Shown: in pieces, positions 17,369-33,372 of the stretch
How positions within the stretch are numbered: position 1 is the first letter of the stretch
How the letters are laid out: each line of letters starts with the position of its first letter
Source of the DNA: Minisyncoccota bacterium
GTDB taxonomy: Bacteria; Patescibacteriota; Minisyncoccia; Phycocordibacterales; UBA2100
NCBI GenBank assembly: GCA_035500505.1
Contig: DATJXE010000006.1
Location: 30,037 to 94,036, forward strand
Reading direction: 5' to 3'
DNA length: 64,000 nucleotides
Translations under genes and position numbers: made by a program
Notes under the pieces: model-generated
Told to the model about the DNA's origin: nothing
Database searches by the model: none
What the model saw: only the letters and a program-made list of their open reading frames with translations

Positions 17369-17380
17369 GAATTTCGTTAA

Positions 17381-17451
17381 CTGGGGGACATGGACTCGAA
17401 CCATGATTCACAGCTCCAAAGGCTGCTGTCCTACCATTAGACGATCCCCCA
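17381..17451 (-). tRNA. tRNA-Gln (anticodon TTG)
   Basis: The reverse complement reads TGGGGGATCGTCTAATGGTAGGACAGCAGCCTTTGGAGCTGTGAATCATGGTTCGAGTCCATGTCCCCCAG. It has a 7-bp acceptor stem with a U1-A72 pair, the GGTTCGAGTCC T-arm, and a CTTTGGA anticodon loop. CCA is not encoded. Confidence 0.85.
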
Positions 17452-17529
17452 AACACGACTGATAGTAACAAAAAAACGGCTCGTTGGAACGCGCTGGCCA
17501 CTGAATCTTGTTTCGGGTAAAATCGACCG

Positions 17530-19740
17530 ATGCGGCAGATAGCAATGCTTACGGCCGCGGCTATCGGAGCCGTTTGCATCATCGCGGGGCTCTTCACGCT
17601 CAACCAGGTCGACCAGGAAGAACTCGACCTGACCGCGCGGTTGCAATCCCACTCGCAGATTGTCGCCGACAGCCTCGTCGACGAAGTCAGCCCTGCCTTC
17701 CGCTCCTACGCGACCAGCACGGTCCAAACGACCGTGGAAAAGTTCGCCAACGAGGAACGCGTCGTCGGCATCGGCGTGTACGACGCGAACGGCAATCCGG
17801 TCGCGCTCTCGGATGGACTTCCCCAGAACGTCAGCGGAGAGAACGTCATCCCGACCTCGATGGACAGCGACGCGGGCACCGGCGCTTACATCGGCAGCAG
17901 CCAGGGCGCGCTCTATGTCTTCTCCGACCCTATTACCGTTGACAACCACGTCATCGGCGCACTCGTCGTCGTGCAAAGCTCCCAATACATCAACGACGCG
18001 GTGACGGGCATCTGGAAGGACGCGCTCGTGCACCTCTTCCTCGAGATCATCCTCTTTGCGGGAGCCATCATTTTCATCGTGCGTTTCGTGTTCCGCCGAG
18101 CCATAACCGATGTCGCGGAATCGGTGCGCTCGATACGCGCGGGCGGCTCCGGCGACGAGCGGGGCGGCTCCGGCATGAGCATATTCCGGCCGCTCACGAG
18201 CGAGATAGCGAAAATGTCGACGAGTTTGCGCGATGCGCGCAGGGCCGCGAGCGAAGAAGCGCGCATGCGCCTGGAGAAACTCGACTCCCCTTGGACCGCC
18301 GAGCGCCTCAAGGAATTCATCAAAGCCTACCTCAAGGACCGGCCGATATATGTCGTCTCCAACGCCGAACCGTACGTGCACAACAAAGTAAAAAATAAGA
18401 TCGAATGGTCGGTGCCCGCCGGCGGTGTCATCACCGCGATAGAGCCGGTGATGGAGGCATGCGGCGGCACCTGGATCGCGCAAGGGAGCGGCGACGCCGA
18501 CAAGGCGGCAGCCAACAAAGAGGGCAAGCTGCGTGTGCCGCCTGAGGAGCCGAAATACACGCTCAAGCGCGTCTTCCTTTCGCCGAAAGAACGCAAAGGC
18601 TACTACGACGGCTTTTCCAACGAAGCGCTCTGGCCGTTGTGCCATCTGGCACACGTGCGCCCGCAATTCCGCAAAGAGGATTGGGCCGAATATCGCAAGG
18701 TCAACGGCATGTTCGCAAAAACGCTGCTTGAAGAGATCCGGCACGTCGAACGCCCGATAGTGCTCGTGCAGGACTACCACCTCGCGCTCGTCCCCGCGCT
18801 CGTCAAAAAAAGCCGGCCCGACGCGCAGGTCGCCATGTTCTGGCACATCCCGTGGCCCTCGGCCGCGCAATTTTCCATTTGCCCCTGGCGCAAAGAGTTG
18901 CTCGAGGGCATGCTCGGCGCCGACCTGGTCGGCTTCCACACGCAGCAGTACTGCAACAACTTCATGGATACCGTCGCCGCCGAGATCGAAGCGCGCATCG
19001 ACTTGGAGCGCTTCGCGGTCGTGCGCGGCGGGCACGAAACGCGCGTCGAACCCTTCCCCATTTCCATCGCCTTCCCGGGGAACGCCGAGATAGAAACCCC
19101 GCCCGACAGATCGATGCTCGACCAGCTCGGCATCAAAACGCCGCTTTTGGCGCTCGGCGTCGACCGGCTCGATTACATCAAAGGCATTCCGGAGCGCTTC
19201 CGCGGCGTCGAATTCTTGCTCAAAATGAACCCCGAATACCGCGAAAAATTCACACTGCTGCAGATAGCATCCCCGACGCGGCACGGCGTCGAGAAGTTCG
19301 AAGAATACGCGCAACAGGTGTTCACGGAAGCCGAGCGCATCAACGAGGCCTACGGCACCGAAACCTGGAAGCCCATCGTCATCGAGCACAAAAGCTACTC
19401 GCACTCGGATTTGCGCAAGCTCTATCAGCTCGCCGACGTGTGTCTCGTCACATCGCTCCACGACGGCATGAACCTCGTCGCCAAAGAATACGTCGCTGCG
19501 CGCTCGCAGGAGAACGGCGTCCTCATCTTGAGCCACTTCGCCGGCGCCTCGCGCGATCTCCCCACCGCGCTCAGCGTCAACCCGTACAGCGCGGAAGAAA
19601 CCGCCGAGGCGCTCAGGCTCGCCTTCACGATGCCCGAAAGCGAACAGCACCGCCGGATGAAGCAGATGCGCGCGGCGGTGCGTGATTACAACGTGTACCG
19701 CTGGTCGGCGGAGATCATCAAGGCGCTCGCGAAGCTGTGA
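17530..19740 (+). CDS. otsA: Alpha,alpha-trehalose-phosphate synthase (GT20) fused to an N-terminal two-TM sensor and HAMP-like module
   Basis: The C-terminal approximately 480 aa are a clear OtsA (YDGFSNEALWPLCH..., VQDYHLALVPALV..., FWHIPWP...). The N-terminal approximately 250 aa contain TM1 (LTAAAIGAVCIIAGLF), a roughly 140-aa extracytoplasmic domain, TM2 (LFLEIILFAGAIIFIVRFVF), and an amphipathic HAMP-like linker. Confidence 0.85.
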   Translation: MRQIAMLTAAAIGAVCIIAGLFTLNQVDQEELDLTARLQSHSQIVADSLVDEVSPAFRSYATSTVQTTVEKFANEERVVGIGVYDANGNPVALSDGLPQNVSGENVIPTSMDSDAGTGAYIGSSQGALYVFSDPITVDNHVIGALVVVQSSQYINDAVTGIWKDALVHLFLEIILFAGAIIFIVRFVFRRAITDVAESVRSIRAGGSGDERGGSGMSIFRPLTSEIAKMSTSLRDARRAASEEARMRLEKLDSPWTAERLKEFIKAYLKDRPIYVVSNAEPYVHNKVKNKIEWSVPAGGVITAIEPVMEACGGTWIAQGSGDADKAAANKEGKLRVPPEEPKYTLKRVFLSPKERKGYYDGFSNEALWPLCHLAHVRPQFRKEDWAEYRKVNGMFAKTLLEEIRHVERPIVLVQDYHLALVPALVKKSRPDAQVAMFWHIPWPSAAQFSICPWRKELLEGMLGADLVGFHTQQYCNNFMDTVAAEIEARIDLERFAVVRGGHETRVEPFPISIAFPGNAEIETPPDRSMLDQLGIKTPLLALGVDRLDYIKGIPERFRGVEFLLKMNPEYREKFTLLQIASPTRHGVEKFEEYAQQVFTEAERINEAYGTETWKPIVIEHKSYSHSDLRKLYQLADVCLVTSLHDGMNLVAKEYVAARSQENGVLILSHFAGASRDLPTALSVNPYSAEETAEALRLAFTMPESEQHRRMKQMRAAVRDYNVYRWSAEIIKALAKL

Positions 19741-19741
19741 T

Positions 19742-20518
19742 ATGGAGCACGCGCGTCGCGCTCTCGAACATATCGGGCGCCGCATGTCTCGCGGGCAGCA
19801 GCTCGTGCTCTTCCTCGATTTCGACGGCACGCTCGCGCCCATCGTACGAGACCCCTCGAAAGCGCGCATGGCGAAGCGCACGCACACGCTCGTCGAGCGA
19901 CTGGCACGGCGCGTGCCGCTTTACATTGTGACAGGACGTTCGTTGCGTGACATACGAAAACGCGCTCGCATACGCGGAGCGCGGTATGCCGGCAACCATG
20001 GCATGGAATGGAGCCGCGGTGCCGCGACCGAGAGTGTCCGCGTTTCGAGCGCCGCGCAAAAGGATGTTCGCGACGCGCTGCGGGCACTGCGCCCCCTCCG
20101 ACGGTACCGAGGCGTTTTTATTGAAGACAAGAAAATATCGGTCGCGTTCCATTACCGCGGTGTTTCGCGGCGTGAGATGCCGGAAGTCATCCAAACAGCG
20201 CACCGCGTGCTTGCTCCAATCCTCAAACGCGGCCGCATCGAGGCACTGCAGCAAAAGAAGCTGCTCGACGTGCGCCCGAAGGGCTGGCACAAGGGCGGCT
20301 TTGTCCGTTTGGTCATGCGGCACATGCCGAAGAACAGCGTCGCGGTCTATATCGGCGATGATGCGACGGACGAGGACGCGTTCGGCGCGCTCCGCGCGAG
20401 CGAGATCGGCATTCGCGTCGGTAAACGTTCTTCAAGTCGCGCGGGGTACTACCTTTCTTCGCAGCGCGCCATGGACGGCTTTCTATTGCGGCTCGCCGCA
20501 CAGATCGACGACCGCTAG
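19742..20518 (+). CDS. otsB: Trehalose-6-phosphate phosphatase (HAD family)
   Basis: LFLDFDGTLAPIV is HAD motif I, and GDDATDEDAF is motif III. The ATG is 2 nt after the otsA stop. Confidence 0.85.
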   Translation: MEHARRALEHIGRRMSRGQQLVLFLDFDGTLAPIVRDPSKARMAKRTHTLVERLARRVPLYIVTGRSLRDIRKRARIRGARYAGNHGMEWSRGAATESVRVSSAAQKDVRDALRALRPLRRYRGVFIEDKKISVAFHYRGVSRREMPEVIQTAHRVLAPILKRGRIEALQQKKLLDVRPKGWHKGGFVRLVMRHMPKNSVAVYIGDDATDEDAFGALRASEIGIRVGKRSSSRAGYYLSSQRAMDGFLLRLAAQIDDR

Positions 20519-21526
20519 CTCGAGCGGCAGGTGCGGCACGGCCGCATAGCCGATGGCCGCGTACGCGTCGAGAAGTGCACGCAGTGTTTCAGAGTTCACG
20601 CCCCGCTCTTTCGAAACTTCTTTGGCGAGCGCGGCGTCCTCGGCGGAAATTCCTTCCGAAAATTCTTTCGCAAGTTCCGGCGCGTAGCGCATGAGGAGCA
20701 CGACGCGCATGAGGTGGATGAGGAGCTTCGCCAGCATCCGCGCGTCCATGTTGGCGGCGACCGCTTCTTCTATCGCACCGAGCGCGGCTTTCGCGTCCTT
20801 TTTCGCGATCCCTGCGAGAAGCCGTCGGACTAATTCCCCACGCGGCGCGCCGGAAACGGTCTCGACCTCCGCAATGTCTATCTTTTTGTCGCGCGAAACG
20901 GCGAGAACTTTCTGCAAAATGGAAAGTGCGTCGCGGAACGAGCCTTCCGCAAGGAGCGCTATCAATTCCGCCGCGGAACGCTCGAGCGAGTATCCCTCTT
21001 TCTTCGCAACGTCGAAGACCGCTTGCGAAAGCACCTCACGCGTCGGTTGTTTGAATACGTAGATCTCGCAGCGCGACTGTATCGTCTCCGGCACTTTGTC
21101 GCGCTCGGTCGTCGCAAGCACGAAAATGGCGTGCGAGGGCGGCTCTTCAAGCGTCTTCAAAAGCGCATTCCACGCCTGCTTCGAGAGCATGTGCGCTTCG
21201 TCGATGATGTAGAACTTGTACGGGGAATCAAAAGGTGTGGTTTGCACGCCTTCGCGCAGCTCGCGAATGTTGTCGACGCCGGTGTTGGACGCCGCGTCTA
21301 TTTCGTAGAGATCTTTGTCGGACGTGCCGAGCGCCTTGGCGAGAATGCGAGCGACGGAAGTCTTCCCCGTGCCGCGGCTCCCCGCGAAGAGGTATGCGTG
21401 CGCCACCTTCCCGTTCTTGATAGATTCCTCAAGCGTATCCGTCACCTGCGGCTGCCCGCGCACCTCGGCGAACGATTGCGGGCGGTATTCCCGATATAGC
21501 GTCGCGTGCCGGGCTTCCTTTGCCAT
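20483..21526 (-). CDS. dnaX: DNA polymerase III subunit gamma/tau (short form)
   Basis: MAKEARHATLYREYRPQSFAEVRGQ...AHAYLFAGSRGTGKTS (Walker A) and ...IIDEAHML. Its 3' end is convergent with and overlaps otsB by about 36 nt. Confidence 0.9.
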   Translation of the reverse strand: MAKEARHATLYREYRPQSFAEVRGQPQVTDTLEESIKNGKVAHAYLFAGSRGTGKTSVARILAKALGTSDKDLYEIDAASNTGVDNIRELREGVQTTPFDSPYKFYIIDEAHMLSKQAWNALLKTLEEPPSHAIFVLATTERDKVPETIQSRCEIYVFKQPTREVLSQAVFDVAKKEGYSLERSAAELIALLAEGSFRDALSILQKVLAVSRDKKIDIAEVETVSGAPRGELVRRLLAGIAKKDAKAALGAIEEAVAANMDARMLAKLLIHLMRVVLLMRYAPELAKEFSEGISAEDAALAKEVSKERGVNSETLRALLDAYAAIGYAAVPHLPLELAVVDLCGEPQ

Positions 21527-21544
21527 GATAGGCAGTATACAAAA

Positions 21545-21580
21545 AGAGACGGCGGCGCACGAGGCGTCGCCGTTTTTTCT
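21545..21580. terminator. Bidirectional intrinsic terminator (9-bp GC stem ACGGCGGCG/CGTCGCCGT flanked by T-runs on both strands)
   Basis: Read directly. It lies downstream of the minus-strand ORF 21594..22787. Confidence 0.5.
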
Positions 21581-21593
21581 CACTGCCGAACAT

Positions 21594-22787
21594 TCACGAC
21601 ATGGGGTCGCCGTTATCATCCAAGCCTTTTGGCCATTCCTTTATACCGACGATTCGCAGAGCCGTGCGGAGCTGGGCAGAACCATTCCGCTGTAGAGACA
21701 AAGCGGAGAACATCTTCCTGAGGTCCGTTTGCCTCTGGCACCACGCCTCGGCCAACATGGGTCGGAGGGCTTCCGGGAACTGCATGACGACTGCGACAAC
21801 ATCGATGCTCAACACGAACCGCTTGGTGATCTCCCGCATCTCCGAAGAAAGGGGCGGCATGCGGATCACTTTGCCGATCAAAGCAGGAGGCTTTTGGATT
21901 GCCGCTGCGACGTGTTTGGCGAGGGTGTACTCTTTTCGCTTCTCCGCAACGCTGTCCAGAAGATCCAGCAAGCCCTGCCCGCAATATGGCCCCGGCCTCC
22001 TCCCGTGAAAAAGCGTCGTGTTCTCCTCGTCGTTTTCCTGTTGCGTTCTTTCGCCATATCGCTCGACGTGCCGCTTCCAGACTGCGACAACAGTTGCTCG
22101 CTTCAGGTATTTGTTTTGTATAACGTTCAAAGCGAGTTGTGCCAACGCCTGGGTCGTTACGACTTGCGCAGAAGCTTCGGAGTATCCCATGTTCGAGGCG
22201 ATTTGCCGATAGGAGTGATTGGTCGCAAAAAGCTGGAACGCACGGTACTTTCGCGGGGGAAGAGATGGCACCTTCCCCACTGTCGCCTCCACCAGTTCTT
22301 CGTCGACTACCCAGGAGGACTTGGTCGCCGCGACAGGCTCCACGGCTGTTTTCCCTTTCCCGGCTCGTTTGTTCGCCGGCGGCTTCGCGGTGTGAGCTTT
22401 CGTTCCCCTGCTCAATTTCACTTCCAGCCCGCCGACGCCGACGTGCCTGATCTGCGGGTTGAGCCGGAGCGGTACTTGCGCGGGAGGAACGTTATGTTCC
22501 GGCGTGAGAACTTTCTTCTTCGACGCAGTCGCGAGCTCCTCGCATGCTACGCAGAGACCTTGCCCGGTCCCCTTCCCCGCGTTGGTCAATTTCACGAGAT
22601 GGCGTACGCCGTGCTTGATGCACGTTTTGCAAAGACGGAATGGGGATGTACATCCTTCGCATTTCGCGTTGTGTCTGTTCCTGGCAGAACGGATCTTGCA
22701 CAAGTCTTCCGTAACTTCCCGCTGGTCCTGCTCGAATGCGCACGGACCGAACGTCTTTTCAGCGATCCTGACCCGTGGAATGAGCAT
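21594..22787 (-). CDS. Hypothetical protein with N-terminal CxxC zinc-ribbon pairs and a sigma-70 region-4/LuxR-like HTH
   Basis: C43xxC46, C54xxC57 and C79xxC82 are present. The segment LPPRKYRAFQLFATNHSYRQIASNMGYSEASAQVVTTQALAQLA fits the sigma70_r4/GerE HTH consensus. The middle of the protein is Lys/Ala/Pro-rich. Confidence 0.6.
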   Translation of the reverse strand: MLIPRVRIAEKTFGPCAFEQDQREVTEDLCKIRSARNRHNAKCEGCTSPFRLCKTCIKHGVRHLVKLTNAGKGTGQGLCVACEELATASKKKVLTPEHNVPPAQVPLRLNPQIRHVGVGGLEVKLSRGTKAHTAKPPANKRAGKGKTAVEPVAATKSSWVVDEELVEATVGKVPSLPPRKYRAFQLFATNHSYRQIASNMGYSEASAQVVTTQALAQLALNVIQNKYLKRATVVAVWKRHVERYGERTQQENDEENTTLFHGRRPGPYCGQGLLDLLDSVAEKRKEYTLAKHVAAAIQKPPALIGKVIRMPPLSSEMREITKRFVLSIDVVAVVMQFPEALRPMLAEAWCQRQTDLRKMFSALSLQRNGSAQLRTALRIVGIKEWPKGLDDNGDPMS

Positions 22788-22828
22788 TGGTCGGTCCTTT
22801 CATGGTTGTTCGGCTGTCAGAGAGCAGC

Positions 22829-23782
22829 CTATTTTGCAGAATAGAATATCTCTTGTGCTTGGGCAACACTCGTCGTTTCCATGAGCCGGACGCGCAGTTC
22901 CTTCGCGCCGTCCCAGCCGGATATGTAGGATTTGAAATGCTTCTTCATGGTCGCGAAATTGGAGACGCCGCCGAGGAGTTCCTCGAAGAGCGCAAGATGC
23001 CGCATGAGTGCCTCAAGCCGTTCGCGTGGCGAAGGTGCGTCCTTGCGTCCAGAAAAAAGCCACGGGTTCCCGAAGATGGCGCGCCCGAGCATGACGCCGT
23101 CGCACTTCGTTTCGGCGACCTTCGCTTTTGCATCGTCCAGATCTCTTGCATCGCCGTTGCCGATGATGAGCGCGTTGGCCTTCACCCCATTGCGAATATC
23201 AACGGCTCGCGCTATCGCGTCCCAGTGCGCCGGTACGTCCGACATTTCCTTGCGCGTTCGCGCATGGAGCGTAACGGCGGCAAGGTCTTCCGCAAGCAGC
23301 TCCGGCAGCCACGTCTCGAGTTCGTCTTTGTTGTAGCCGATGCGTGTTTTCACCGAGACCGGTCCGTCGAATCCTTTTTTCGCGGCTCGTATGAGTTCAC
23401 GCGCGAGCTTCGGTGTTTTGATGAGCGCCGCACCGCAACCGCTTTTCTCGACAGCACGATCGGGGCATCCCATATTGATATCGAGCCCGTCGAATCCGAG
23501 TTCCGCAACAATGCGTGCCGCTTGTTCCATCCGCTCCGGCGATGCGGTGAATAGTTGCGCAACGATGGGCCGCTCGATATCGGAATACTCAAGCTTCGCG
23601 CGCAATTGCTTCTGCCCGTGCTCATCCGCAAGCAATAATCCGTCGGCTGAGGTGAACTCGGTGAACATGACGGCCGGTTTCCCATATTCAGCTATCAGCC
23701 GCCTGAACGCGGCATCCGTCACGTTTTCAAGGGGTGCGAGGGCAAAAATAGGTTTCGGCAAATCGCTCCAAAGATTCTTCAT
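22829..23782 (-). CDS. dus: tRNA-dihydrouridine synthase
   Basis: MKNLWSDLPKPIFALAPLENVTDAAFRR...GFDGLDINMGCP...KTRIG are Dus FMN/TIM-barrel motifs. The start is set at MKNLW (23782); the track ORF has a non-coding-looking N-terminal extension. Confidence 0.85.
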   Translation of the reverse strand: MKNLWSDLPKPIFALAPLENVTDAAFRRLIAEYGKPAVMFTEFTSADGLLLADEHGQKQLRAKLEYSDIERPIVAQLFTASPERMEQAARIVAELGFDGLDINMGCPDRAVEKSGCGAALIKTPKLARELIRAAKKGFDGPVSVKTRIGYNKDELETWLPELLAEDLAAVTLHARTRKEMSDVPAHWDAIARAVDIRNGVKANALIIGNGDARDLDDAKAKVAETKCDGVMLGRAIFGNPWLFSGRKDAPSPRERLEALMRHLALFEELLGGVSNFATMKKHFKSYISGWDGAKELRVRLMETTSVAQAQEIFYSAK

Positions 23783-32297: not shown

Positions 32298-32429
32298 AGG
32301 TGGCGCGGAGTGGGTCGTTTTTGCTATCTTCTTCGAACAAAAAGACTTTTATATATGTGCCGGACCCTAACGTGAAGTTACAACATGCTCGAACGCGAGA
32401 GGGCAAAAACGACCCACTCCGCGCCACCT
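32298..32429. repeat. Hairpin element 2: perfect 27-bp inverted repeat (AGGTGGCGCGGAGTGGGTCGTTTTTGC and its reverse complement) around a 78-nt loop; loop segment 32357-32368 is complementary to loop segment 32219-32230 of element 1
   Basis: Read directly: arms at 32298-32324 and 32403-32429. The right arm abuts the parB stop codon. Confidence 0.85.
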
Positions 32430-33372
32430 ACACCGAAAAATTCGAGATAGAGTACAGGTCGTCGGACCCGTCACTTGCGGACCCTTGAGGAGCAGATGGT
32501 TCCTCCCCGACTTGCTCGGATGGCGCGGAAGCGGGCGGTTGCGTGGCGCCCGCGCGAGAGACCATGTCGCGGATGTGCGCGAGATCGTCGACGGAAAAGA
32601 ATTCTATCAACACCTTCCCGCCCTGATCCTTTTTCTCGATGCGCACGCGCGTGCCGAATTTTTCGGTAAGTTCGCGCTCGAGGAGAAGGAGTTCCGGCGT
32701 GAGGTCACCCTTGCGCGCGCGCTCCGTCGCGATCCGCCGCGCCATTTGTTCGGTATCGCGCACAGTGAGACGCTTGGCGATAACTTCTTTGAAAAGCGTC
32801 ACCTGTTCGGCCGCTCTGTCCATGAGCATCAGAAGAGGCCGCGTGTGACCTTCGCTTATTTCCCCGCTCGAAAGCGCGTCTTGCATTTCTTTGGGCAACC
32901 CCAAGATGCGCAGCGTGTTGGAGACGTACTCGCGACTCTTACCGACTCGTTTTCCTATCTCGGCATGCTTCAGGCCGAACTCGTTCGCGAGGCGCTGGAA
33001 AGCCAAGGCCCGATCGATCGGGTTCAGATCTTCGCGTTGTAAGTTCTCGATGATGGCGATCTCGAGTTTCACCCGGTCGGAATCTTCGGCCGTGCGGATG
33101 ACGACCGGCACTTCGCGCACGCCGGCCATCTTCGCCGCGCGAAGCCTTCGCTCGCCGGCTATCAGTTCGTACTCGACGGAAATACCTTCCCCAGGCCGTT
33201 CTATCTCTTTGCGCGTAACAGTAAGGGGTTGGAGAACGCCATAGCTGCGTATCGACTCCGCGAGGGACGCGAGCGCAGCCTCGTCGAAAGTCTTTCGCGG
33301 CTGGAACGGATTGGGTTTTATCCTTTCAACCTCGACCCAAAAAATGGAATCATAGCGTCCATTACCTGGCAT
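32428..33372 (-). CDS. parB: ParB/Spo0J chromosome partitioning protein
   Basis: ParB N-terminal box (GERRLRAAKMAGV...), HTH, and C-terminal dimerisation region. No parA is adjacent on either side. Confidence 0.85.
   Translation of the reverse strand: MPGNGRYDSIFWVEVERIKPNPFQPRKTFDEAALASLAESIRSYGVLQPLTVTRKEIERPGEGISVEYELIAGERRLRAAKMAGVREVPVVIRTAEDSDRVKLEIAIIENLQREDLNPIDRALAFQRLANEFGLKHAEIGKRVGKSREYVSNTLRILGLPKEMQDALSSGEISEGHTRPLLMLMDRAAEQVTLFKEVIAKRLTVRDTEQMARRIATERARKGDLTPELLLLERELTEKFGTRVRIEKKDQGGKVLIEFFSVDDLAHIRDMVSRAGATQPPASAPSEQVGEEPSAPQGSASDGSDDLYSISNFSV

What the first reader, a model, noticed from the sequence alone, without database searches (positions are those of the whole stretch)
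21594..22787. Orphan 397-aa protein combining zinc ribbons with a sigma70-region-4-like HTH, wedged between dnaX and dus
The N-terminal 85 aa hold three CxxC pairs (C43/C46, C54/C57, C79/C82), predicted as a zinc ribbon or treble clef. Residues about 190-240 (LPPRKYRAFQLFATNHSYRQIASNMGYSEASAQVVTTQALAQLA) match the sigma-70 region 4 / GerE HTH consensus, but no sigma region 2 is present. The middle is Lys/Ala/Pro-rich and the C-terminal 150 aa are uncharacterised. The usual dnaX-ybaB-recR arrangement is replaced by this gene, which has its own bidirectional terminator at 21545-21580. It is a candidate novel transcription regulator or anti-sigma-like factor.
Basis: partly seen in the sequence, partly recalled or inferred. 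Interest (0 to 1): 0.5.

Follow-up and report, generated by a model that had tools for sequence, protein, structure and literature searches.

The report
Zinc-plus-double-HTH DNA-binding protein in variable slot
This gene from an uncultured Paceibacterota bacterium encodes a probable DNA-binding protein made of a new two-zinc module, a LuxR-type helix-turn-helix and a ParB-type DNA-binding domain; it is one version of a very fast-changing gene that always sits between dus and dnaX in related genomes, and its function is untested.

Summary
The 397-aa ORF at 21594-22787 (-) is a real gene. It is an orphan only at BLAST level. An exhaustive phmmer search found 13 distant relatives, and all 11 with readable context lie in the same place, after dus and immediately before dnaX.

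The protein has four parts:
- A domain with eight invariant cysteines (two predicted zinc sites) that matches no known family.
- A disordered basic linker.
It lacks ParB's CTP-binding and dimerisation domains.

Two other occupants of this slot are full ParB paralogues. One of them carries the zinc domain.

The dus-dnaX interval is hypervariable across 73 species. It is empty in 19, and elsewhere it holds shuffled combinations of these modules. Zinc-domain similarity does not follow host relatedness.

An anti-sigma or sigma role is not supported. The gene does not replace ybaB-recR, because it lies upstream of dnaX.

Most likely it is a clade-specific, dispensable DNA-binding regulator or nucleoid protein derived from ParB. 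This is a new variant of a known kind, of moderate interest.

The parts
21594..22787 (-). Complete ORF, 397 aa plus stop (NCBI hypothetical protein VMH91_04180, Candidatus Paceibacterota MAG)
   Evidence: The reading frame is confirmed by family profile matches to both ends (N-domain E 1.5e-33, C-domain E 1.2e-47).
22509..22760 (-). N-terminal Cys8 domain (residues 10-93). Ligand candidates are C16, C30, C43, C46 (site 1) and C53, C56, C79, C82 (site 2).
   Evidence: The eight Cys are invariant in alignment A2. C82 is replaced by His in the variant subfamily. Half-domain members keep only the first four Cys. AF2 pLDDT is 82-92. No known family matches.
22263..22508 (-). Disordered basic linker rich in Val/Pro/Ala/Lys (residues 94-175)
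   Evidence: pLDDT is below 50 for residues 94-186. Composition and net charge +5 are. Its length and sequence are not conserved in the family.
22047..22262 (-). LuxR/GerE-type four-helix HTH (residues 176-247)
   Evidence: Pfam Sigma70_r4_2 scores E 0.021 and NCBIfam sigma-70 E 9e-4, both below their cut-offs. Profile A5 hits GerE-type effector domains at 1e-7 to 1e-4. A leave-target-out HMM scores 27.7 bits on residues 164-247. pLDDT is 63-80.
21597..21998 (-). ParB-type HTH DNA-binding domain (residues 264-397), ending in the conserved tail WPxxLDDxGxP (residues 385-395)
22795..22800 (-). Shine-Dalgarno-like AAAGGA, 7 nt upstream of the ATG. Only 41 nt separate this gene from the dus stop codon, so co-transcription with dus is likely.
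   Evidence: Read from the sequence.
21541..21578 (-). Intrinsic-terminator-like hairpin (stem 21549-21558 / 21564-21573) with a T-run on either strand. It ends the serS-ftsQ-like-dus-slot-gene transcription unit.
   Evidence: The fold is -27.2 kcal/mol, z = -3.1. Comparable hairpin plus T-run elements precede dnaX in many related loci.
21534..21539 (-). Conserved -10-like TATACT, 7 nt upstream of the dnaX ATG (21526). It marks the downstream boundary of the variable slot.
   Evidence: It is conserved in nearly all 80 related loci whatever the slot contains. DNA homology to the closest relatives resumes at 21547.
21583..21592 (+). CTGCCGAACA, one of two inverted copies of CWGCCGAACA that bracket the ORF
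   Evidence: The motif occurs 3 times in 64 kb against 0.26 expected, and two copies flank the ORF. This is inverted repeat I8. It is not a general feature of other loci, and its significance is uncertain.
22807..22816 (-). CAGCCGAACA, the second inverted copy, 20 nt upstream of the ATG

Best explanation
The gene encodes a clade-specific, multi-module DNA-binding protein that descends from, or has recombined with, ParB paralogues.

Shown:
- A well-predicted C-terminal ParB-type HTH DNA-binding domain.
- A LuxR/GerE-type HTH.
- An N-terminal domain with eight invariant cysteines.
- A disordered basic linker.
- Every module carries net positive charge.
- There is no ParB CTP-binding domain, no ParB dimerisation domain, no sigma region 2 and no enzymatic domain.

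Inferred:
- It binds specific DNA sites through the two HTH modules, as KorB, Noc and LuxR-type effectors do. Without the CTP switch it would not form a sliding clamp.
- It therefore acts as a transcription regulator or local nucleoid-associated protein.
- The two-zinc module supplies dimerisation or an extra nucleic-acid or protein contact.

The gene is the last one in the serS-ftsQ-like-dus unit, upstream of a terminator and of dnaX's own promoter. This interval is a hypervariable slot in Kaiserbacteria/Adlerbacteria-like Paceibacterota. It is empty in about a quarter of species. Elsewhere it holds shuffled combinations of the same three modules, in versions whose similarity does not follow host phylogeny. 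The gene is therefore accessory, turns over rapidly, and is probably dispensable.
For: Domain assignments:
- ParB-type HTH.
- LuxR-type HTH.
- Cys8 conservation with a Cys-to-His swap.
- AF2 confidence per module.
- Positive charge of all modules.

Link to ParB:
- Slot proteins L056 (zinc domain plus ParB_N with GERRWRA plus HTH) and L075 are 30% and 27% identical to the window's canonical ParB, at E 4e-14 and 2e-13.

Fixed position:
- All 11 family members with readable context lie just upstream of dnaX. Eight of these also show dus on the other side.
- 16 of 73 species-representative loci carry at least one of the modules in this interval.

Variability:
- The dus-dnaX gap is under 150 bp in 19 loci, 150-600 bp in 17 and 600 bp or more in 37.
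- The closest relative (DnaX 85%) has only a 99-aa unrelated ORF. The next (DnaX 83%) has a 549-aa member whose zinc domain is 18% identical to the target's.
- DNA homology to both breaks at 22873 and resumes at 21547.

Dispensability:
- An IS3-family element splits the gene in L085, L086 and L088.

No paralogue exists in the 64-kb window.
Against: - No DNA-binding, zinc-binding or regulatory activity has been tested.
- The target's own LuxR segment is below Pfam thresholds and reaches significance only through family profiles.
- The AF2 alignment was shallow (13 sequences), and model coordinates could not be inspected for zinc-site geometry.
- No target operator was identified. The flanking 10-mer is a post hoc observation that does not generalise.
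- Rapid turnover could also reflect relaxed constraint rather than function.
Confidence: 0.6

Rival explanations
1. It is a ParB paralogue with a chromosome-organisation role, analogous to Noc (a ParB duplicate that binds specific sites). It would bind chromosomal sites near the parB/topA/dnaX region and influence segregation, division or replication rather than transcription.
For: The C-domain is ParB-type. Full ParB paralogues occupy the same slot in L056 and L075. The canonical parB lies about 10 kb away at 32428-33372. An ftsQ-like gene is in the same operon and ftsA/ftsZ are in the window.
Against: The target lacks the CTP-binding N-domain and the dimerisation domain that ParB and Noc need for spreading or clamping. 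The gene is absent from many close relatives and is interrupted by an IS in one population, which is unexpected for a core chromosome-organisation factor. No parS-like site is present in the window.
Confidence: 0.15
2. It is cargo or a remnant of a small mobile or selfish cassette that targets the dus-dnaX junction, for example the regulator or partition gene of a degraded integrative element. In that case it has little function for the host.
For: The distribution is patchy and incongruent with phylogeny. Homology breakpoints against the closest relatives are sharp. An inverted 10-mer brackets the ORF. Unrelated genes (PyrE-like, TPR) occupy the slot in some genomes. ParB- and LuxR-type HTH proteins are common on mobile elements (own knowledge).
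Against: No integrase, transposase, replication or phage gene accompanies it in any of the loci, except for the IS that disrupts it. No hits were found in phage or plasmid collections or in BFVD. Composition and codon-position GC match the host. Flanking inverted repeats are not found in 15 of 16 other loci tested. The cassette is always co-oriented and shares the host operon's terminator/promoter layout.
Confidence: 0.15
3. One reading: it is an anti-sigma-like or sigma-mimicking factor that uses a zinc-binding domain and a region-4-like HTH to act on RNA polymerase or a dedicated sigma factor.
For: There are weak Sigma70_r4_2 and sigma-70 family hits (E 0.021 and 9e-4). The target contains H39-x3-C43-x2-C46, which is formally the ZAS motif. 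The zinc-domain profile resembles TraR/DksA-type C4 fingers very weakly (E 0.38).
Against: H39 is not conserved in any relative, whereas the eight Cys are. No zf-HC2 hit, no sigma region 2 and no adjacent sigma gene were found. The HTH profile prefers LuxR/GerE effectors over sigma factors by 3-5 orders of magnitude in E-value. The remainder of the protein is a ParB-type DNA-binding domain.
Confidence: 0.05
4. It is a decaying or non-functional ORF in a junk interval.
For: The sequence turns over extremely fast, the slot is empty in many relatives, and an IS disrupts the gene in one lineage.
Against: The 397-codon frame is intact, with host-like codon-position GC, an RBS and a terminator. Eight Cys and the C-terminal tail motif are conserved across otherwise 20-35% identical relatives. 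Two modules have high AF2 confidence.
Confidence: 0.05

Closest known systems
ParB/Spo0J superfamily DNA-binding domain (ParB, Noc, KorB; Pfam HTH_ParB PF17762)
   Same: The C-terminal 130 aa align in register with the ParB HTH and its following helices. The family profile hits M. xanthus ParB at E 4.6e-5. The best fold matches are ParB, Noc and KorB DNA-binding domains. Some proteins in the same genomic slot are full ParB paralogues.
   Different: The target has no ParB/Srx CTP-binding N-domain (no GxxRxxA), no ParB_C dimerisation domain, no adjacent parA and no parS consensus. It carries extra zinc and LuxR modules and a family-specific WPxxLDDxGxP tail. It falls below the Pfam threshold as a single sequence.
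LuxR/GerE (NarL/FixJ-type) HTH effector domain (Pfam GerE PF00196), related to sigma-70 region 4
   Same: The middle module (residues 176-247) follows the four-helix pattern. Slot-protein profiles hit VraR, DesR, DevR, GerE and NarL.
   Different: There is no receiver or ligand-binding domain. The module is embedded between a zinc module and a ParB-type domain. The target alone scores only sub-threshold sigma-r4 hits.
Small Cys4 zinc ribbons (adenylate kinase lid, TraR/DksA C4 finger, Top1 zinc ribbon)
   Same: CxxC...CxxC spacing in the second half (C53/C56 ... C79/C82). ADK_lid and TraR hits are weak (E 0.004 to 0.4).
   Different: No match is significant. The first site uses dispersed ligands (C16, C30, C43, C46). 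The eight-ligand arrangement with a Cys/His swap defines a family that is not in Pfam, NCBIfam, PHROGs or PADLOC.

Membership tests
ParB/Spo0J/Noc/KorB | HTH-containing central DNA-binding domain | tested here: met
ParB/Spo0J/Noc/KorB | N-terminal ParB/Srx CTP-binding domain with a GxxRxxA box | tested here: not met
   There is no ParB_N hit and no GxxRxxA motif. The corresponding region is a disordered linker. Slot proteins L056 and L075 do have this domain.
ParB/Spo0J/Noc/KorB | C-terminal dimerisation domain (ParB_C) | tested here: not met
   The target has no PF23552 hit, whereas the window's canonical ParB has one. The protein ends with the family-specific WPxxLDDxGxP tail.
ParB/Spo0J/Noc/KorB | Partner ParA and cognate parS-like sites | tested here: inconclusive
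   The neighbouring genes are dus and dnaX. The canonical parS consensus is absent from the window at up to 3 mismatches. A private binding site cannot be excluded.
LuxR/GerE HTH | Four-helix GerE-type HTH | tested here: met
   Profile A5 hits VraR, ChrA, DesR, DevR, GerE and NarL at 1e-7 to 1e-4. A leave-target-out HMM finds residues 164-247 at 27.7 bits. The target alone gives only Sigma70_r4_2 at E 0.021.
LuxR/GerE HTH | Regulatory receiver or autoinducer-binding domain | tested here: not met
   No such Pfam or NCBIfam hit was found.
Sigma-70 factors | Region 2 (core and -10 binding) | tested here: not met
   No Sigma70_r2 hit appears even at E up to 10. NCBIfam matches cover only the region-4 end of the models.
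Zinc-binding anti-sigma (ZAS) | Conserved H-x3-C-x2-C in an anti-sigma domain, with an adjacent ECF sigma gene | tested here: not met
   The motif is present in the target (H39, C43, C46), but H39 is R, V, Y or L in relatives. No zf-HC2 hit was found. The neighbouring genes are dus and dnaX.
Zinc ribbon / treble-clef class | Four-ligand Cys/His metal sites conserved across homologues | tested here: met
   Eight Cys are invariant. The last ligand is His in the variant subfamily. Truncated members keep exactly the first four. pLDDT is 82-92.
Zinc ribbon / treble-clef class | Actual metal binding and fold class | not testable with these tools
No significant match to any solved zinc domain was found.
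   Only HTH_28 at E 0.19. PHROGs, PADLOC, phage and plasmid searches were negative or non-significant.

The most novel reading that the evidence does not exclude
The dus-dnaX interval of Kaiserbacteria/Adlerbacteria-like Paceibacterota may be an idiomorph-like diversification locus. Deeply divergent, modularly shuffled ParB-derived DNA-binding proteins, including a previously undescribed two-zinc domain, would be exchanged or maintained independently of genome phylogeny because they take part in a conflict or recognition process. Examples are silencing or excluding phage or foreign DNA, or strain-specific control of host-interaction genes in these episymbionts.
Probability: 0.15. Interest if true: 0.65.

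Novelty: new variant of a known kind. Interest (0 to 1): 0.4.

Why it matters
Regulators are scarce and poorly understood in the reduced genomes of CPR/Patescibacteria.

This work does three things:
- It turns a "hypothetical orphan" into a defined architecture of a two-zinc module, a LuxR-type HTH and a ParB-type HTH, whose DNA binding can be tested directly.
- It shows that ParB paralogues have been repeatedly truncated and recombined into CTPase-less DNA binders in this clade.
- It identifies a single, precisely bounded hypervariable slot in an otherwise highly syntenic region. Such slots are useful markers of strain-level diversification, and assemblies often break there.

If the variability reflects conflict or recognition, the slot would be an accessible entry point into CPR-phage or CPR-host interactions. 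If not, the finding is a routine annotation improvement.

Tried and rejected
- The word-index homology search found only the protein itself. With family alignments it recovered only 2 proteins each time.
- The single-sequence AF2 model was unusable (pLDDT 35).
- The search for related loci rejected alignments A1, A2 and A6 for lack of a conserved 7-10-column stretch. The family was therefore reached indirectly through dnaX.
- The afdb50 fold library was unavailable.
- The BFVD viral fold search gave nothing meaningful. PHROGs gave only non-significant hits and PADLOC gave none. Phage and plasmid tblastn found no match.
- The zinc-domain profile against PDB gave only non-significant hits to ZNF473, TraR and the adenylate kinase lid.
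- The parS consensus is absent from the window, and no over-represented palindrome lies near the gene.
- Flanking inverted repeats as a general cassette signature were rejected: 15 of 16 other loci are at chance level.
- L001 and L002 were checked as a possible transfer of an identical allele between genomes. They are the same genome at 98% DNA identity.
- Rfam finds no RNA gene in the slot, neither here nor in 10 related loci, so there is no SRP RNA upstream of dnaX as in Bacillus.
- ybaB and recR were not among the small ORFs tested in the window.
- Literature searches found no description of this family.

Full report
**1. Observation**

The ORF at 21594-22787 on the minus strand encodes 397 aa. 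It is identical to an NCBI "hypothetical protein" from a Candidatus Paceibacterota MAG.
- Codon-position GC (0.59/0.45/0.68) resembles that of its neighbours.
- An AAAGGA ribosome-binding site precedes the ATG by 7 nt, and only 41 nt separate the ATG from the dus stop codon.
- A 371-aa antisense ORF overlaps the gene. Homology of both ends of the minus-strand product to relatives fixes the coding strand.
- Cysteines are at 16, 30, 43, 46, 53, 56, 79 and 82, plus 269 and 350.
- The quoted HTH peptide lies at residues 176-219, not 190-240.
- The neighbours are dnaX (Pfam DNA_pol3_delta2/AAA/gamma3) and dus (Pfam Dus).
- The gene is 5' of dnaX. It therefore cannot be replacing ybaB-recR, which follow dnaX in other bacteria. 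A convergent otsB/otsA pair lies downstream of dnaX here.

**2. It is not a true orphan**

Pfam, NCBIfam, PHROGs, PADLOC and PDB sequence searches with the single protein gave only sub-threshold sigma-70 region 4 hits. The word-index search found only the protein itself.

An exhaustive phmmer search of 1.84 billion representatives found 13 relatives. They match either residues 1-110/178 or residues 261-397, never the middle (alignment).

Context look-ups place these relatives in one location.
- P0003 lies in dprA-serS-ftsQ-like-dus-[P0003]-dnaX.
- P0002, P0011 and P0013 lie on short contigs that begin in dus and end in dnaX.
- P0005, P0007 and P0010 are followed by the same hairpin, with the -10 box and dnaX start also readable for P0005 and P0007.
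- P0009 and P0014 are two halves of one gene, split by an IS3-family element in the same position.

**3. The slot**

Using DnaX as a handle, I fetched 80 species-representative loci from Kaiserbacteria/Adlerbacteria-like Paceibacterota. The order serS-ftsQ-like-dus-...-dnaX is almost universal, but the dus-dnaX spacing varies widely.

| Gap between dus and dnaX | Loci (of 73) |
|---|---|
| under 150 bp | 19 |
| 150-600 bp | 17 |
| 600 bp or more (up to 2953 bp) | 37 |

- Co-directional ORFs in the gap form one BLAST-linked cluster of 29 sequences that includes the target.
- Further occupants carry GerE or ParB_N domains. A few are unrelated, for example PyrE-like, TPR and YtxH-like small proteins.
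- The closest relative (L005, DnaX 85%) has only a 99-aa unrelated ORF.
- The next closest (L006, DnaX 83%) has a 549-aa member with the same module order but only 18% identity in the zinc domain.
- DNA homology to both relatives stops at window 22873, inside the dus 3' end, and resumes at 21547.
- Zinc-domain identity does not track DnaX identity. For example, L006-L074 are 52% identical in DnaX but 39% in the zinc domain, while window-L006 are 83% and 18%.
- On a DnaX tree, occupied and empty slots are interleaved.
- Most metagenomic members sit on contigs of 0.8-2.2 kb, and four alleles occur in one sample. This fits assembly breaks at a strain-variable locus. The same phenomenon is described for another CPR gene in PMC6851277.

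**4. Modules**

*(a) N-terminal zinc domain.*
- Eight Cys are invariant in alignment A2.
- A second subfamily (L006, L029, L048, L056, L074, and also L058) keeps all ligand columns but has His in place of the last Cys.
- Several members keep only the first four Cys. This suggests two sequential four-ligand sites.
- AF2 with the family alignment gives pLDDT 82-92.
- No significant match to a known zinc domain was found.

*(b) Linker.* Residues 94-186 are predicted disordered. The region is basic and rich in Val/Pro/Ala/Lys.

*(c) Middle HTH.*
- A profile of this segment from 11 slot proteins hits GerE-type effector domains at 1e-7 to 1e-4, and sigma factors more weakly.
- A profile built without the target still finds target residues 164-247 at 27.7 bits.
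- It is best described as LuxR/GerE-type.

*(d) C-terminal domain.*
- pLDDT is 94-97.
- The family profile hits M. xanthus ParB at E 4.6e-5 over its DNA-binding domain, then Spo0J, H. pylori ParB and C. crescentus ParB more weakly.
- Foldseek's top 20 are almost all ParB, Spo0J, Noc or KorB.
- hhalign against the window ParB, against L056, and against a three-ParB alignment aligns the same register, with E 0.0043, 0.027 and 0.0011.
- L056 (zinc domain plus ParB_N with GERRWRA plus HTH) and L075 are genuine ParB paralogues in the same slot.
- The target itself lacks ParB_N, the GxxRxxA box and ParB_C.

**5. Mechanism**

Shown: the architecture, the positive charge of all modules, the absence of enzymatic or CTPase parts, and the accessory status.

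Inferred:
- The protein binds DNA sequence-specifically through the two HTH modules, without CTP-dependent clamping.
- It acts as a regulator or local nucleoid protein.
- The zinc module supports dimerisation or partner contact.

I give this reading about 0.6. The rivals are a Noc-like chromosome role, mobile-cassette cargo, an anti-sigma factor, and a decaying ORF. They are weighed in their own entries.

**6. Comparison with known families, and novelty**

The protein works like a KorB/Noc/LuxR-type DNA binder. It is not a member of the ParB family sensu stricto, because two defining domains were tested and are absent. It is not a sigma factor or a ZAS anti-sigma factor. The Cys8 domain and the three-module architecture are undescribed in the libraries searched, and no paper describing them was found. 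I rate it a new variant of a known kind.

**7. Verdict**

The gene is real. The orphan, anti-sigma and ybaB-recR points are not. The main added value is the ParB link and the hypervariable, phylogeny-incongruent slot. Interest is 0.4.

Noticed in passing
window 21524-21539 (-); loci L001-L091 upstream of dnaX: A TATACT -10-like box (often GnTATACTGCC) lies about 5-9 nt upstream of the dnaX ATG in nearly all related genomes. Where dus abuts dnaX, it lies inside the dus 3' end. This suggests that dnaX is transcribed from its own promoter as a leaderless or near-leaderless mRNA in this clade.
   Followed up: partly
L085:6001-7930 (also L086, L088): The family gene is split by an IS3-family insertion (HTH_Tnp_1 plus rve ORFs). 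The 5' piece is P0009 (82 aa). The 3' piece (199 aa, P0014-like) carries the last two Cys and the ParB-type domain. 12 contigs carry the 5' fragment P0009, and the IS is visible in the three loci that extend far enough, so the gene appears dispensable.
   Followed up: yes
window 21583-21592 (+) and 22807-22816 (-); third copy at 41481-41490: The 10-mer CWGCCGAACA occurs three times in 64 kb (0.26 expected). Two copies, in inverted orientation, bracket the ORF just outside the stop and start codons. They could be an operator pair or an insertion scar. The pattern is not seen around most other slot genes.
   Followed up: partly
window 17530-20518 (+), tRNA-Gln at 17380-17452 (-): otsA (GT20) and otsB (trehalose phosphatase), with GC 0.60-0.65 and otsA GC3 0.82, lie between dnaX and tRNA-Gln. 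In relatives a tRNA lies about 0.4-3.6 kb after dnaX. This looks like a second, tRNA-adjacent insertion and possibly a horizontally acquired trehalose pathway.
   Followed up: no
L056:3009-4547 and L075:3003-4211: Full ParB paralogues (ParB_N with GERRWRA or GGHRRREA, plus HTH) occupy the dus-dnaX slot. L056 has the Cys/His zinc domain fused to its N-terminus, an architecture that Pfam does not describe.
   Followed up: partly
loci L015, L062, L064, L067, L070, L071, L073, L074, L076, L077, L080, L083 (serS position): In these genomes the syntenic serS is only 34-38% identical to the window's SerS, against 62-90% in the others. In L015 this is despite DnaX being 74% identical. This suggests in-place displacement by a divergent seryl-tRNA synthetase type.
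   Followed up: no
window 21597-21632 (-), residues 385-395: A C-terminal tail WPxxLDDxGxP is conserved in most members that carry the ParB-type domain, and it is predicted with very high confidence. It may be a docking motif. No match to clamp-binding or other known motifs was found.
   Followed up: no
window 21729-22844 (+): A 371-aa ORF runs antisense to the target gene. It is an artefact of high GC content and has no family support. It could mislead automated gene callers.
   Followed up: yes
L016, L017, L018, L026, L035, L042, L059, L010, L023 (slot ORFs): Slot proteins that do not join the BLAST cluster still look like tandem HTH repeats when read by eye (L016-18 have a LuxR-like module, doubled in L016). 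The slot appears to encode mostly DNA-binding proteins even where sequence similarity is lost.
   Followed up: partly
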